Shown here: one piece after another, positions 244 to 62,820 of the stretch
Position numbering within the stretch: position 1 is the stretch's first letter
How the letters are laid out: each line of letters opens with the position of its first letter
NCBI RefSeq assembly: GCF_003018255.1
Contig: NZ_CP027440.1
DNA length: 64,000 bases
Direction: 5' to 3' (one strand)
Origin: Escherichia coli
GTDB taxonomy: Bacteria > Pseudomonadota > Gammaproteobacteria > Enterobacterales > Enterobacteriaceae
The notes under the pieces: model-generated
The model's input: the letters and a program-made list of their open reading frames with translations, nothing else
Databases searched by the model: none
What the model was told of the DNA's origin: nothing
Program-made: the position numbers and the translations under genes

Positions 244-310
244 ATTGTGAATGGCGCTTCGTTTACAAAGTAGAAAACGAAAGCGCCATCAATGTGCTGA
301 GAACAAGATT

Positions 311-399
311 GCCTGATGCGCTACGCTTATCAGGCCTGCAAAATCTGTTGAAAATATTGCTTTTGTAGGCCGGATAAGGCGTTCACGCCGCATCCGGCA
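311..399. repeat. REP/BIME palindromic elements (gcctgatgcgctacgcttatcaggcc ... gtaggccggataaggcgttcacgccgcatccggca)
   Basis: Typical E. coli REP consensus read directly in the hemN-glnG intergenic region. Confidence 0.7.
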
Positions 400-432
400 T
401 GAACAAAGAGCACTTCATCAGCAATCTGAAAC

Positions 433-543
433 TCAACTAAACAGCCCAATCATCGCGGCACACAGCACGGCAGCAACAGCAGTTTGCGGTGTGTGGCTGT
501 CAACTGCGCCACTCGATACCAGATTAATTATTGATTCCAGCAT
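433..543 (-). CDS. yshB: Small protein, 36 aa (MLESIINLVSSGAVDSHTPQTAVAAVLCAAMIGLFS), YshB-like
   Basis: Hand-translated minus-strand ORF (ATG at 541-543, stop at 433-435), below the ORF-track length cutoff; identity from recollection of a small gene in this intergenic region. Confidence 0.4.
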   Translation of the reverse strand: MLESIINLVSSGAVDSHTPQTAVAAVLCAAMIGLFS

Positions 544-654
544 AATGACTCTCCCCGTTTTCCGGGCAAGATCATACTGAACTTATCGGAACAGTAAAGC
601 GCAAAACACCAGCAATTTGCGCTCAATAATCAATCTTTACACACAAGCCGTGAA

Positions 655-4860: not shown

Positions 4861-4929
4861 CTGCACCATGATGTGAATGTTGCACCAATATAGTGCTTCA
4901 ATGGAAACATTAAGCACCATATTGGTGCA
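4861..4929. promoter_or_regulatory. NtrC (NRI) upstream activator sites for glnAp2
   Basis: TGCACC...GGTGCA-type dyads read at 4881-4896 (tgcaccaatatagtgc) and 4914-4929 (gcaccatattggtgca), plus a further tgcacc repeat from 4861. Confidence 0.65.
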
Positions 4930-5080
4930 ATGACCTTTGGATAACCCTTTTTATGCTCCGTGAAAGCGATCACAAAGGGACTCTGCAATACTTGTTTGCG
5001 GAGGATGTTTGTGATCCTGTTTTGTAGTGCGATTAATCCGTGTACAATAACGCGCTATTTCTAATGCCTGAGGCAAAGTT

Positions 5081-27143: not shown

Positions 27144-30100
27144 TTACACCTTTTCCACATTCACAAGGAAGGACTTAAACTCCGGCGTCTGCGTGTTCGC
27201 ATCACCGACGAATGGCGTCAACGTATTGGCAATAAAGCCTTTTTTCGCAACACCTTCATAGCCCCAGTGAATCGGAATACCGATGGTATCGATATCTTTG
27301 CCGTTTGCTTTCAGCGTGCGAATACGTTTGGTCACTACCGCTTTGGCTTTGATATAGCCACGGTTGGAGGAGACTTTCACAGTATCGCCCTGGGCAATGC
27401 CAAGTTTATTCGCCAGCGACTCCCCGATTTCCACAAACTGCTCTGGTTGCAAAATCGCATTCAACAGCGCGTGTTTGGTCCAGTAGTGGAAGTGCTCGGT
27501 CAGACGATAGGTGGTTCCGACATACGGGAACTTATCGGCTTTACCCAATGCTTCGGCGTCGTCTTTAAAGATACGCGCAGCCGGGTTCGAGATAACGTTT
27601 GGATGCAGCGGGTTAGTTCCCAGCGGCGTTTCAAACGGCTCGTAGTGTTCCGGGAACGGACCTTCCGCCATCTTATCGAGGGCAAACAGACGTCCCATGC
27701 CTTCCTGCTGCATGATAAACGGCCCTACGCCGCTGCCCGGAGGCGCTGCGCTGTAGTCCGGAATATCCCAGCCGGTCCACTTAGTGCCGTCCCATTTCAG
27801 CAACTGACGCTTCGGATCCCATGGGTTACCCTGCGGATCTGCGGAGGCGCGGTTATACAGAATGCGGCGGTTAAGCGGCCATGCCCATGCCCAGCCCAGC
27901 GTGTTACCGAGGCCAGACGGATCGGCGTTATCACGACGCGCCATCTGGTTACCTTCTGGCGTCCAGCTACCGGCGAAAATCCAGCAGCCACAGGAGGTCG
28001 TACCGTCATCGCGCAGTTGGGCGAACGAGCTAAGTTGTTGGCCTTTCTTGACGATAACCGCACCGGTTGCCGGATCGGTAATATCGGCCAGCGCCTTACC
28101 GTTGCTCTCCATCGCCACTTCTTCCGACTTCGGCTCATGCGGAATGGCGTAGTTCCAGGTCATATTCAGCACCTGGTCCGGGTTTGCGCCACCCTGTTCG
28201 GCATACATCTTGCGCAAGCGCAGGAAGATACCGGAGAGGATCTCGCCATCAGTCAGCGCAATCCCTGGGGCGTCCGCACCTTTCCAGTGCCACTGTAACC
28301 AGCGACCGGAGTTAACGATTGAACCGTTCTCTTCTGCGAAGCAAGTCGATGGCAGACGGAACACTTCGGTCTGGATCTTCGACGAGTCAACTTCGTTCAG
28401 CTCACCGTGGTTCTGCCAGAAGTTAGAGGTTTCAGTGTTCAGCGGGTCGATGGTGACGAGGAACTTCAGTTTCGACAGACAACCGATCACTTTGTTTTTG
28501 TTCGGGAATGAGGCAACAGGGTTAAAGCCCTGGCAGATATAGCCATTGACCTTGCCTTCTTTCATCATCTCGAAGTATTGCAGGACGTCGTAGCCTTTAT
28601 CCCACTTCGGCAACCAGTCAAAGCCCCAGCTATTTTCCGCCGTCGCTTTATCACCAAAGAATGCCTTCATCATTGAGACGAAGAATTTCGGGTAGTTGCC
28701 CCAGTAGTTGACCTGGCCTTCCAGCAGTGGTTTTGGCGTGTTGGCAGCGAGGTAAGTTTGCAGATCGGTCTGCTTCTCGCTTGGCAACGTCATGTAACCT
28801 GGCAGACTCTGCGACAGCAGCCCCAGGTCGGTCAGCCCCTGAATATTGGAGTGACCGCGCAGGGCGTTAACGCCGCCGCCAGCCATCCCCATATTGCCGA
28901 GCAGCAACTGGATCATCGCCATCGTACGAATGTTTTGCGCACCAATGGAGTGTTGCGTCCAGCCGAGCGCGTAAAGGAACGAGGCAGTTTTATCGTGAGC
29001 ACTGGTCTCAGCGATGTATTCGCAGACTTTCAGGAATGCGTCTTTTGGCGTACCACAGATGTTTTCAACCACATCTGGCGTGTAGCGGGAAACGTGCTGT
29101 TTCAGCAAGTTCCACACGCAACGTGGATGTTGCAGGGTAGTATCGCGTTTGGCGAAGCCGTTTTCGTCCAGTTCGTAAGTCCAGGAGGATTTATCGTACT
29201 TACGTTTTTCCGCGTCATAGCCGGTGAACAGGCCATCTTCAAAGCCGTAATCCTCACGCACGATCAGGCTGGCGTTGGTATAGGCTTCGGTGTATTCGCG
29301 GTTGAATTTTTCATTGTTCAGCAGGTACAGCAATACGCCTGACAGGAAAGCAATGTCAGTACCGGAACGAATAGGGGCATAGTAGTCAGCTACCGCCGCC
29401 GTACGCGTAAAGCGAGGATCGATCACAATCAGCTTCGCGCCATTGTGAATTTTGGCTTCCATCGCCCAGCGGAACCCGACCGGGTGAGCTTCAGCGGCGT
29501 TACCGCCCATCACCACGACGAGGTTGGCGTTCTTGATGTCGACCCAGTGGTTGGTCATCGCACCGCGACCAAATGTTGGAGCAAGACTTGCTACCGTTGG
29601 TCCGTGTCAGACACGCGCCTGGTTGTCGACCGCGAGCATACCCAGCGCGCGGGAGAATTTTTGCGTTAAATAGCCGGTTTCGTTACTCGACGCGGAAGCA
29701 CACAGCATCCCGGTGGAGAGCCAGCGGTTAACGGTCACGCCTTCGGCGTTTTGCGCAATGTAGTTAGCATCGCGGTCTTCTTTCATCAGTTTGGCGATGC
29801 GATCAAACGCCTCTTCCCAACTGATTTGCTGCCATTTATCAGAACCTGGCGCACGGTATTCCGGAAACTTCAGACGGCTTTCGGAGTGGATGAAATCCAC
29901 CAGGCCAGCGCCTTTCGGACAAAGTGCACCGCGGTTGACCGGGTGATCCGGGTCACCTTCGATATGGAAGATAGATGCTTTGGCGTTTTTTGCTCCGTCA
30001 CCGAGGCTGTACATCAACAGCCCACAGCCTACGGAACAATAGGTGCAGGTATTACGGGTTTCGCGGGTGCGCAGCAGTTTATACTGCCGGGTTTCCGCGA

Positions 30101-34969: not shown

Positions 34970-35118
34970 CTGTTGCCGGATATACGATCTGTAGGCCGGA
35001 TAAGGCACTCGTGCCGCATCCGGCAATCAATGCCTGATGCGACGCTGTCGCGTCTTATCAGGCCTACAACTATTGCCGACCCGTAGGCCGGATAAGGCAC
35101 TTGTGCCGCATCCGGCAG
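34970..35118. repeat. REP/BIME cluster in the rhaD-rhaA intergenic region
   Basis: Repeated gtaggccggataaggc...gccgcatccggca and gcctgatgcgacgc...cttatcaggcctac units. Confidence 0.75.
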
Positions 35119-43902: not shown

Positions 43903-44045
43903 GTGTAGGCCTGATAAGACGCTATCAGCGTCGCATCAGGCATCCTGCTCAAATGCCGGATGCGGCGTAAACGCCTTATCCTGCCTACAAAACCCATAAA
44001 TTCAACAGGTTTTGTAGGCCTGATAAGCGTAGTGCATCAGGCATT
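43903..44045. repeat. REP/BIME cluster between yiiM and cpxA
   Basis: gtaggcctgataagacgc...gcatcaggc and gccggatgcggcgtaaacgccttatc units read directly. Confidence 0.75.
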
Positions 44046-49034: not shown

Positions 49035-49135
49035 TGCCTGATGCGCTTCGCTTATCAGGCCTACATGAATTCTGCAATTTATTGAATTTGCGAACTTTTG
49101 TAGGCCGGATAAGGCGTTCGCGCCGCATCCGGCAT
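49035..49135. repeat. REP/BIME elements after pfkA
   Basis: gcctgatgcgcttcgcttatcaggcctac and gtaggccggataaggcgttcgcgccgcatccggca read directly. Confidence 0.75.
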
Positions 49136-62221: not shown

Positions 62222-62752
62222 TTACGCTTTGTAGCTTAATTCTTCGATGGTGTGGAAATGGTTGGTATAGATGCAAATGTCGCCTGCAATATCCAACGCC
62301 TTTTCAGCAATTTCACGGGCGCTAAGTTCAGTGTTTTCTAACAGCGCGCGCGCCGCAGCCTGGGCGTAAGGGCCGCCGGAGCCGATAGCAATAAGATCGT
62401 TTTCTGGCTGCACCACGTCACCGTTACCGGTGATGATAAGCGAAGCGGTTTCATCCGCGACTGCCAGCAGTGCTTCAAGTTTGCGCAGCATGCGATCGGT
62501 ACGCCAGTCTTTTGCCAGCTCAACGGCGGCTTTGACCAGATGGCCCTGATGCATTTCCAGTTTACGTTCAAACAGTTCGAACAGCGTAAAAGCATCCGCA
62601 GTACCGCCCGCAAAGCCCGCGATGACTTTGTCGTTGTACAGACGGCGGACCTTTTTCACGTTGCCTTTCATTACGGTATTGCCCAACGTGGCCTGACCAT
62701 CACCAGCGATGACCACATGGCCGTTACGGCGTACGCTTACTATAGTTGTCAC
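62222..62752 (-). CDS. hslV: ATP-dependent protease subunit HslV, 176 aa
   Basis: N-terminal Thr protease peptide [31 protein letters not shown]... Confidence 0.97.
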
Positions 62753-62820
62753 GAGCTGACCCCTTGGTTACGAATACAGAGTACAAACCCCGTACAAAAG
62801 TACGGGGCATAATGCAATTA

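What the first reader, a model, noticed from the sequence alone, without database searches (positions are those of the whole stretch)
433..543. 36-codon small-protein ORF between hemN and glnG
A minus-strand ORF (MLESIINLVSSGAVDSHTPQTAVAAVLCAAMIGLFS) lies below the ORF-track cutoff and matches the position where a small gene (yshB) is annotated in E. coli as I recall; it has a hydrophobic C-terminal half.
Basis: partly seen in the sequence, partly recalled or inferred. Interest (0 to 1): 0.2.

Follow-up and report, generated by a model that had tools for sequence, protein, structure and literature searches.

The report
Known small membrane protein gene yshB
The 36-codon reading frame is the already annotated E. 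coli gene yshB, a real, conserved and experimentally detected small membrane protein between glnG and hemN, so the finding is correct but ordinary.

Summary
The minus-strand ORF at 433..543 exists exactly as described and encodes MLESIINLVSSGAVDSHTPQTAVAAVLCAAMIGLFS. RefSeq annotates these coordinates as yshB (WP_000893994.1), between hemN and glnG. The protein scores 72.1 bits against the NCBIfam equivalog small_YshB (cut-off 34).

An ORF this short is not evidence of a gene by itself. Conservation is the evidence:
- 5425 of 5426 complete E. coli genomes carry one copy at 95% identity or more. The two diverged copies examined (3 and 5 base differences expected from their identity) encode the identical protein.
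- A homologue sits 100-150 nt downstream of glnG in 35 species-representative genomes from six Enterobacterales families. Lengths are 35-41 aa, so all length changes keep the frame.
- Codon-position differences are 0.33/0.15/0.57, and dN/dS is about 0.23.
- A TTTACT-N16-TATGAT promoter and a G-rich Shine-Dalgarno block are conserved across 18 loci from about a dozen genera.

Published work reports intact-protein detection by top-down mass spectrometry, cleavage by the intramembrane protease RseP, an own promoter that nitrogen limitation does not induce, and a role in Salmonella intracellular replication.

The molecular function remains unknown. I infer a C-terminally anchored helix that packs against a partner membrane protein through a conserved Ala/Cys face. 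Verdict: already known, low interest.

The parts
433..543 (-). yshB coding sequence: 36 codons plus a TGA stop at 433-435, ATG at 543-541
   Evidence: Searches give the ORF and translation. One search gives the RefSeq annotation at the same bases. One search gives NF033841 at 72.1 bits. Searches show purifying selection on this frame.
549..556 (-). Shine-Dalgarno block GGGGAGAG; the GGAG core at 554-551 lies 7 nt before the ATG
   Evidence: Read from the sequence. The G-rich block is conserved at the same distance from the ATG in nearly all of the 18 aligned loci, with one exception where an insertion intervenes.
571..598 (-). Sigma-70-type promoter: -35 TTTACT (598-593), 16-nt spacer, -10 TATGAT (576-571). 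The inferred transcription start is near 564, giving a leader of about 20 nt.
   Evidence: Consensus scan. The CTTTACT block is invariant and the -10 region (GTATGAT in 16 of 18 rows) nearly so across the 18 loci. PMC9731577 states that yshB has its own promoter. The start site is inferred, not measured.
598..623 (-). Hairpin AGCGCAAA-N10-TTTGCGCT followed by TTTACTGTT. It is probably the glnALG operon terminator and abuts the yshB -35 hexamer.
   Evidence: Inverted repeat I4, fold, and sequence conservation across genera. The terminator role is inferred. The fold of the wider 86-nt stretch is not better than shuffles (z -0.16).
296..410 (.). REP (repetitive extragenic palindrome) elements in the yshB 3' region, variable between E. 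coli strains
   Evidence: Inverted repeats I1 and I2. About 39 matching places per genome. Partial naRNA4/REP match at 368-404. Strong fold, z -8.4. The K-12 derivative has a different REP content.
247..292 (.). Perfect-stem hairpin ATGGCGCTT...AAGCGCCAT between the convergent hemN and yshB genes, a likely shared (bidirectional) terminator
   Evidence: Inverted repeat I3 and fold. Nearly invariant between the three E. coli strains aligned. The terminator function is inferred.

Best explanation
This is yshB, a real protein-coding gene for a 36-residue small inner-membrane protein.

Shown here or in the cited papers:
- It is transcribed from its own conserved sigma-70-type promoter, just downstream of the glnALG operon and convergent with hemN.
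- It is translated from a conserved GGAG ribosome-binding site.
- The intact protein is detectable in E. coli.
- The protein is a substrate of the site-2 intramembrane protease RseP.

Inferred mechanism (my estimate is about 50%):
- The protein consists of a short N-terminal amphipathic helix (residues 2-13), a conserved H-[ST]-P-Q hinge, and a C-terminal membrane helix (about residues 17-35).
- The invariant or near-invariant small residues A22, A24, A25, C28 and A29 lie on one helical face.
- Through this face it packs against a larger membrane protein, or against itself, and modulates that partner. Other enterobacterial small membrane proteins work this way (MgrB-PhoQ, AcrZ-AcrB, MgtS-MgtA, CydX-CydAB).
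- RseP-dependent cleavage limits its level.

The partner is unknown.
For: Identity:
- Annotated as yshB at exactly these bases.
- NF033841 equivalog at 72.1 bits against a cut-off of 34.

Constraint within E. coli:
- One copy at 95% identity or more in 5425 of 5426 complete genomes.
- The K-12-derived copy (97.3% identical, about 3 base differences) and the most divergent copy (95.5%, about 5) both encode WP_000893994.1, so those changes are synonymous.

Constraint across species:
- Homologue in the same place and orientation in 35 species genomes of Enterobacteriaceae, Erwiniaceae, Yersiniaceae, Pectobacteriaceae, Hafniaceae and Budviciaceae.
- Lengths of 35-41 aa, so all indels are in frame. 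Pairwise differences by codon position are 0.334/0.145/0.572.
- Median dN/dS is 0.23. Every other frame carries stops in most of the 10 species sampled.
- Promoter hexamers, Shine-Dalgarno block and the ATGCTGGAA start are conserved across the 18 aligned loci.

Protein features:
- No K or R, a hydrophobic C-terminus, and conserved small residues on one face at 300-100 degrees of the helical wheel.
- The AlphaFold2 model has helices 2-13 and 17-35, with pLDDT 85 for the C-terminal half.

Literature:
- RseP cleaves YshB in all four assays, in vivo and in vitro (PMC10470546).
- Top-down mass spectrometry detects YshB, and the authors note it lacks tryptic sites (PMC12529367).
[quoted passage not shown] The Salmonella homologue is involved in intracellular replication (PMC9731577 citing Bomjan 2019).
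- It is predicted at more than 11,000 copies per cell in stationary phase (PMC7549839).
Against: - The mechanism has no direct evidence. No partner is known, and the family has no relative among solved structures.
- The uncharged hydrophobic stretch is only 16 residues, which is short for a membrane span.
- With no positive charges, the topology cannot be predicted.
- The RseP assays used N-terminally tagged constructs, which the authors warn can alter topology.
- The structural model has only moderate confidence (mean pLDDT 73.6, pTM 0.35).
- The gene is cleanly absent from the locus in many Enterobacterales, so any function is dispensable.
Confidence: 0.9

Rival explanations
1. The ORF is a chance reading frame in a non-coding spacer, and the annotation is propagated by homology only.
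For: ORFs of this size are abundant by chance, with 45 of at least 20 aa in 3 kb. There is no Pfam family. Only 15 hits at E up to 0.001 were found among 1.84 billion representative proteins.
Against: The frame is preserved with in-frame indels across six families. The third codon position varies four times more than the second. dN/dS is 0.23. E. coli nucleotide variants are synonymous in the two copies examined. The ribosome-binding site and start are conserved. The intact protein was detected by top-down mass spectrometry.
Confidence: 0.01
2. The functional product is a small regulatory RNA, alone or together with the peptide (a dual-function transcript), and conservation reflects RNA structure or base-pairing.
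For: The locus lies where Pseudomonas has the sRNA NrsZ downstream of ntrBC. From my own memory of the Bomjan 2019 abstract, which I could not read here, the Salmonella gene was found during an sRNA screen.
Against: No Rfam family matches the ORF or leader at gathering or at E up to 1. The transcript folds no better than shuffles, z +0.91. The substitution pattern is that of a protein, with wobble positions free and amino acids kept.
Confidence: 0.04
3. YshB is a type I toxin-like or pore-forming hydrophobic peptide (Hok/Ibs/Ldr/TisB-like) that depolarises the membrane when it accumulates.
For: It is small and hydrophobic. In the RseP screen it falls in class I with HokB and HokE as a substrate, and RseP suppresses HokB toxicity.
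Against: No promoter-like site was found on the opposite strand within the gene, and no antitoxin RNA family matched. It is a single-copy gene in a fixed syntenic position rather than a mobile or multicopy one. It has no positively charged residues, which typically flank the transmembrane helices of such toxins (the comparison is from my own knowledge). It is reported as tolerated at about 11,000 copies per cell.
Confidence: 0.05
4. The ORF is a leader or regulatory peptide whose translation controls a neighbouring gene.
For: Its size is typical of leader peptides.
Against: There is no co-directional gene downstream. The next gene, hemN, is convergent and separated by REP elements and hairpins. 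The amino-acid sequence itself is conserved, which is unusual for most leader peptides.
Confidence: 0.01

Closest known systems
YshB of E. coli K-12 and Salmonella (NCBIfam NF033841, small_YshB; WP_000893994.1)
   Same: The amino-acid sequence is identical to the RefSeq E. coli protein, including a K-12 derivative. Position, orientation, promoter and neighbours are the same.
   Different: Nothing in the gene itself. This strain has a different REP content in the 3' spacer from K-12, 189 nt against 228 nt between yshB and hemN.
Small single-pass membrane regulators of enterobacteria (MgrB, AcrZ, MgtS, CydX, PmrR)
   Same: Comparable size of 30-50 aa, one hydrophobic helix, and its own small transcription unit. 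It appears alongside MgrB and CydX in the RseP substrate screen. This is the model for the inferred mechanism.
   Different: There is no sequence relationship. The partner is unknown. YshB lacks any K or R flanking the helix, and its hydrophobic stretch reaches the very C-terminus. The functions of the comparators are from my own knowledge.
Hok-family and other type I toxins
   Same: Small hydrophobic peptides cleaved by RseP.
   Different: No antisense RNA signal, single syntenic copy, no cationic residues, and reported high copy number without toxicity.

Membership tests
YshB family small membrane protein (NCBIfam NF033841) | Whole-protein score above the curated cut-off of the equivalog model | tested here: met
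   72.1 bits against a cut-off of 34, E 2.4e-20, covering residues 1-36.
YshB family small membrane protein (NCBIfam NF033841) | Sequence identity with the annotated E. coli YshB at the same chromosomal position | tested here: met
   RefSeq CDS yshB WP_000893994.1 lies on exactly window 433-543. The same protein accession is annotated in a K-12 derivative.
YshB family small membrane protein (NCBIfam NF033841) | Synteny: immediately downstream of glnG on the same strand, convergent with hemN | tested here: met
   The homologue sits immediately downstream of glnG in all 35 species loci that carry it. The convergent hemN follows within 240-412 nt in 29 of them, lies 831 and 2204 nt away in Budvicia and Edwardsiella, and was not found within the fetched flank in four.
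YshB family small membrane protein (NCBIfam NF033841) | Family motif M-L-[ED]-S ... H-[ST]-P-Q-x-A-x-A-A-x-L-C-A and a length of 35-41 aa | tested here: met
   M1, A24 and C28 are invariant. S4, P19, Q20, A22, A25 and A29 are at least 90% conserved in 32 sequences.
YshB family small membrane protein (NCBIfam NF033841) | The protein is actually made | not testable with these tools
   Literature only: top-down mass-spectrometry detection in E. coli (PMC12529367). The original tagging study (Hemm 2008) is not in the held library.
YshB family small membrane protein (NCBIfam NF033841) | Membrane insertion | not testable with these tools
   Supported indirectly. The C-terminal helix is hydrophobic, and the intramembrane protease RseP cleaves tagged YshB in vivo and in vitro.
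Type I toxin-antitoxin peptide (Hok/Ibs/Ldr-like) | Overlapping or adjacent antisense RNA gene | tested here: not met
   No promoter-like site on the + strand within or next to the ORF. No Rfam match apart from REP.
Leader peptide / attenuator | Co-directional regulated gene immediately downstream | tested here: not met
   The downstream gene hemN is convergent.
Lipoprotein signal peptide | Lipobox [LVI][ASTVI][GAS]C after a positively charged n-region | tested here: not met
   The residues before C28 are A-V-L, with L at position -1 where G, A or S is required. The protein has no K or R. The lipobox consensus is from my own knowledge.

The most novel reading that the evidence does not exclude
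YshB is an ancestral Enterobacterales accessory subunit of a still unidentified membrane complex. It docks through the invariant A24/C28 small-residue face and is turned over by RseP. Its repeated clean loss in lineages such as Yersinia, Rahnella, Pseudocitrobacter, Cedecea and many Erwiniaceae would then track loss or change of that partner. A weaker extension is that the family reaches Vibrionaceae, through a small ORF beginning MLESLF in the same glnG-hemN spacer of Photobacterium pectinilyticum.
Probability: 0.4. Interest if true: 0.35.

Novelty: already known. Interest (0 to 1): 0.08.

Why it matters
It matters little as a discovery. The gene has been annotated since the 2008 small-protein surveys and is named by NCBI's annotation pipeline in essentially every E. 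coli genome. Its value is as a positive control: a reader without tools correctly spotted a real 36-codon gene below normal ORF cut-offs. The open question is biological rather than genomic. The molecular partner and function of YshB are unknown, even though it is conserved, reportedly abundant, and required for full Salmonella virulence. The presence/absence map and the conserved Ala/Cys face reported here give concrete handles for that question.

Tried and rejected
I therefore fetched loci with the GlnG C-terminus, which is unbiased with respect to yshB presence.
- The phmmer search of 1.84 billion representatives gave only 15 hits. Small ORFs are rarely called by gene finders, so this says little about distribution.
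- Pfam gave no match. A profile search of PDB sequences gave no meaningful match.
- The primary papers were not in the held library: Bomjan 2019 (PMC6689311), and my remembered PMC ids for Hemm 2008, Hemm 2010 and Fontaine 2011. Their content is cited only through papers that cite them.
- An sRNA reading was tested and rejected.
- A stop-to-stop six-frame profile search of the loci without a hit found no degraded yshB remnant.
- The Photobacterium candidate was tested by profile comparison. It reached only 18% probability, with the match confined to the N-terminus, so homology is not established.
- I did not run a fold search. A 36-residue two-helix model would give meaningless matches.

Full report
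**Observation.** The window carries a minus-strand ORF at 433..543. It has an ATG at 543-541, 36 sense codons and a TGA stop at 435-433. An ORF of this length is not remarkable by itself, since the first 3 kb hold 45 ORFs of at least 20 aa. The question is therefore whether anything beyond the open frame supports a gene.

**Identity.** A 461-base query spanning the spacer matched 5425 of 5426 complete E. coli genomes. Every listed record that covers the ORF annotates hemN, yshB and glnG under the match.
- In a record 100% identical to the window, the CDS 'yshB, YshB family small membrane protein', WP_000893994.1, occupies locus 1694-1804. That equals window 433-543, minus strand.
- It lies between hemN (ending at window 243, plus strand) and glnG (minus strand), with glnL beyond.
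- The protein passes NCBIfam equivalog NF033841 (small_YshB) at 72.1 bits against a curated cut-off of 34.
- Pfam has no model for it.

**Constraint within E. coli.** The 111-base ORF alone is present once in 5425 of 5426 genomes, always at 95% identity or more. A K-12 derivative (97.3% identical, about three base differences) and the most divergent listed copy (95.5%, about five) both carry protein accession WP_000893994.1. Those substitutions are therefore synonymous.

**Constraint across species.** The peptide was too short for the homology tools. I instead fetched 80 loci from species-representative genomes using the C-terminal 200 residues of GlnG, which does not presuppose yshB.
- tblastn and a profile built from the first hits found a YshB homologue 100-150 nt downstream of glnG, on the same strand, in 35 of these loci.
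- The genera are Escherichia, Phytobacter, Citrobacter, Kluyvera, Enterobacter, Pluralibacter, Siccibacter, Mangrovibacter, Superficieibacter, Shimwellia, Pantoea, Mixta, Erwinia, Serratia, Acerihabitans, Pectobacterium, Hafnia and Edwardsiella, plus Budvicia more weakly.
- Lengths are 35, 36, 37, 38, 39, 40 or 41 aa, so every length change keeps the frame.
- Mean pairwise differences by codon position are 0.334, 0.145 and 0.572.
- Pooled pN/pS is 0.37. Median Jukes-Cantor-corrected dN/dS over 194 unsaturated pairs is 0.23. The other five frames carry stops in most of the 10 species sampled.

**Presence and absence.**
- Where yshB is present and hemN follows directly, the glnG-hemN spacer is 240-412 nt.
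- In 20 Enterobacterales loci without yshB the spacer is only 32-148 nt. These include Pseudocitrobacter, Pseudescherichia, Cedecea, several Pantoea and Erwinia, Rosenbergiella, Tatumella, Rahnella and Yersinia.
- Two exceptions lack yshB but have longer spacers: Erwinia psidii at 413 nt and Pantoea sp. 1.19 at 214 nt.
- A stop-to-stop six-frame profile search found no degraded remnant.
- The gene is thus old in the order but dispensable and repeatedly absent from this locus. Only 2.5 kb of flank was searched, so relocation is not excluded.
- No homologue was found downstream of glnG in Shewanella, Vibrionaceae, Halomonas or other gammaproteobacteria.

**Expression signals.** The consensus scan found one promoter-like site on the minus strand: TTTACT (598-593), a 16-nt spacer, and TATGAT (576-571).
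- In an alignment of the glnG-yshB spacer from 18 loci of about a dozen genera, CTTTACT is invariant and the -10 region (GTATGAT in 16 of 18 rows) nearly so, while surrounding bases vary.
- The G-rich Shine-Dalgarno block (GGGGAGAG at 556-549, with the GGAG core 7 nt before the ATG) and the ATGCTGGAA start are also conserved.
- Just upstream, a hairpin AGCGCAAA-N10-TTTGCGCT (623-598) abuts the -35 hexamer. I read it as the terminator of glnALG, which is an inference.
- Downstream lie REP elements (about 296-410) and a perfect-stem hairpin at 247-292 next to the hemN stop. This region folds far better than shuffles, z -8.4.
- The coding transcript itself does not fold better than shuffles, z +0.91.
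- No Rfam family matches the ORF or leader at gathering or at E up to 1. Only a partial REP-derived naRNA4 match appears, at 368-404.

**The protein.**
- It has no lysine or arginine, two acidic residues and one histidine. GRAVY is 1.12.
- The only long uncharged hydrophobic run is T21-S36, at the very C-terminus.
- Across 32 family members M1, A24 and C28 are invariant. S4, P19, Q20, A22, A25 and A29 are at least 90% conserved.
- On a helical wheel T21, A22, A24, A25, C28, A29 and I32 fall within one sector of roughly 300 to 100 degrees. A face of small residues like this is what tight helix-helix packing requires, which is an inference.
- AlphaFold2 with the family alignment gives helices 2-13 and 17-35 with a break at residues 14-16. 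Mean pLDDT is 73.6 overall and 85 for the C-terminal half, so confidence is moderate.
- No relative has a solved structure.

**Literature.**
- PMC10470546 screened 37 small membrane proteins. It places YshB in class I, cleaved by RseP in all four assays: plasmid-borne and chromosomal RseP with HA-MBP fusions, a 3xFLAG fusion, and purified enzyme in vitro. It also notes further periplasmic cleavage by unidentified proteases. The authors caution that tags can change topology.
- PMC12529367 detected YshB by top-down proteomics and notes that it lacks tryptic sites, which agrees with the sequence.
[quoted passage not shown] It cites Hemm 2008 for the gene and Bomjan 2019 for a role in intracellular replication.
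- PMC7549839 cites a prediction of more than 11,000 copies per cell in stationary phase. It also reports that a C-terminally His-tagged version was not detectable.
- Two other mentions are incidental: lower expression in a mouse colitis model, and a neutral SNP in the yshB-glnG spacer in an evolved strain.
- The primary papers were not available to read.

**Explanation.** That this is yshB, a translated and selected small-protein gene, is as secure as sequence analysis can make it. Published protein-level data back it. How the protein works is not known.
- My best inference, at about 50%, is the pattern established for other enterobacterial small membrane proteins. A C-terminally anchored helix binds a larger membrane protein, or oligomerises, through the conserved Ala/Cys face. 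It modulates that partner, and RseP limits its level.
- Four rival readings are each contradicted by specific results above: a chance ORF, an sRNA, a type I toxin and a leader peptide.

**Comparison and novelty.** The protein is identical to the known E. coli YshB and meets every family feature that could be tested here. Nothing about the gene in this window departs from the reference. Only the REP content of its 3' spacer differs from K-12, at 189 against 228 nt. The finding is correct, already known and of low interest.

Noticed in passing
window 296-410; compare L082 511-740: The yshB-hemN spacer is built of REP elements and differs between E. coli strains. It is 189 nt here against 228 nt in a K-12 derivative and in strain AST85. 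Those two have an extra REP right after the yshB stop and lack 10 nt further on.
   Followed up: partly
window 598-623 (- strand): A hairpin AGCGCAAA-N10-TTTGCGCT, conserved across genera, sits directly against the yshB -35 hexamer. It is probably the glnALG terminator, so operon termination and yshB initiation share a few bases.
   Followed up: partly
L005, L008, L014, L022, L024, L026, L029, L033-L035, L039-L042, L044, L046, L050, L051, L053, L055, L059 (glnG-hemN spacer): yshB is cleanly absent from this locus in 20 Enterobacterales species genomes (spacer 32-148 nt, no remnant). It is present in 35 others (spacer 240-412 nt where hemN follows directly). This suggests an ancestral gene that was repeatedly lost.
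   Followed up: partly
L069 3386-3514 (+), Photobacterium pectinilyticum: A 42-aa ORF, MLESLFSFSVAMPAVSEIAANGPGHFAAGILALIAAVNMFHG, lies between glnG and the convergent hemN. It has the YshB-like N-terminus MLESL and a hydrophobic tail. Similarity is not significant (HMM E about 4; hhalign probability 18%).
   Followed up: partly
L036 3104-3516 (Erwinia psidii); L047 3107-3320 (Pantoea sp. 1.19): These two loci have long glnG-hemN spacers (413 and 214 nt) but no recognisable yshB. Their content was not examined further.
   Followed up: no
window 4892-4999 (+): Rfam ES222 sRNA match at 133 bits, beyond the glnA end of the glnALG operon.
   Followed up: no
window 29554-29612 (-): Rfam SECIS_3 selenocysteine insertion element at 84.3 bits, which implies a selenoprotein gene here.
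   Followed up: no
window 34994-35064 (+), 43908-43985 (-), 49057-49098 (-), 62750-62807 (-): Other Rfam matches above gathering score: two naRNA4 (REP-derived) copies, ES036 sRNA and the ClpQY (hslVU) promoter element.
   Followed up: no
E. coli genome collection: Two of the 5425 yshB matches are on records labelled plasmid, and one complete genome has no match at all. Neither was examined.
   Followed up: no
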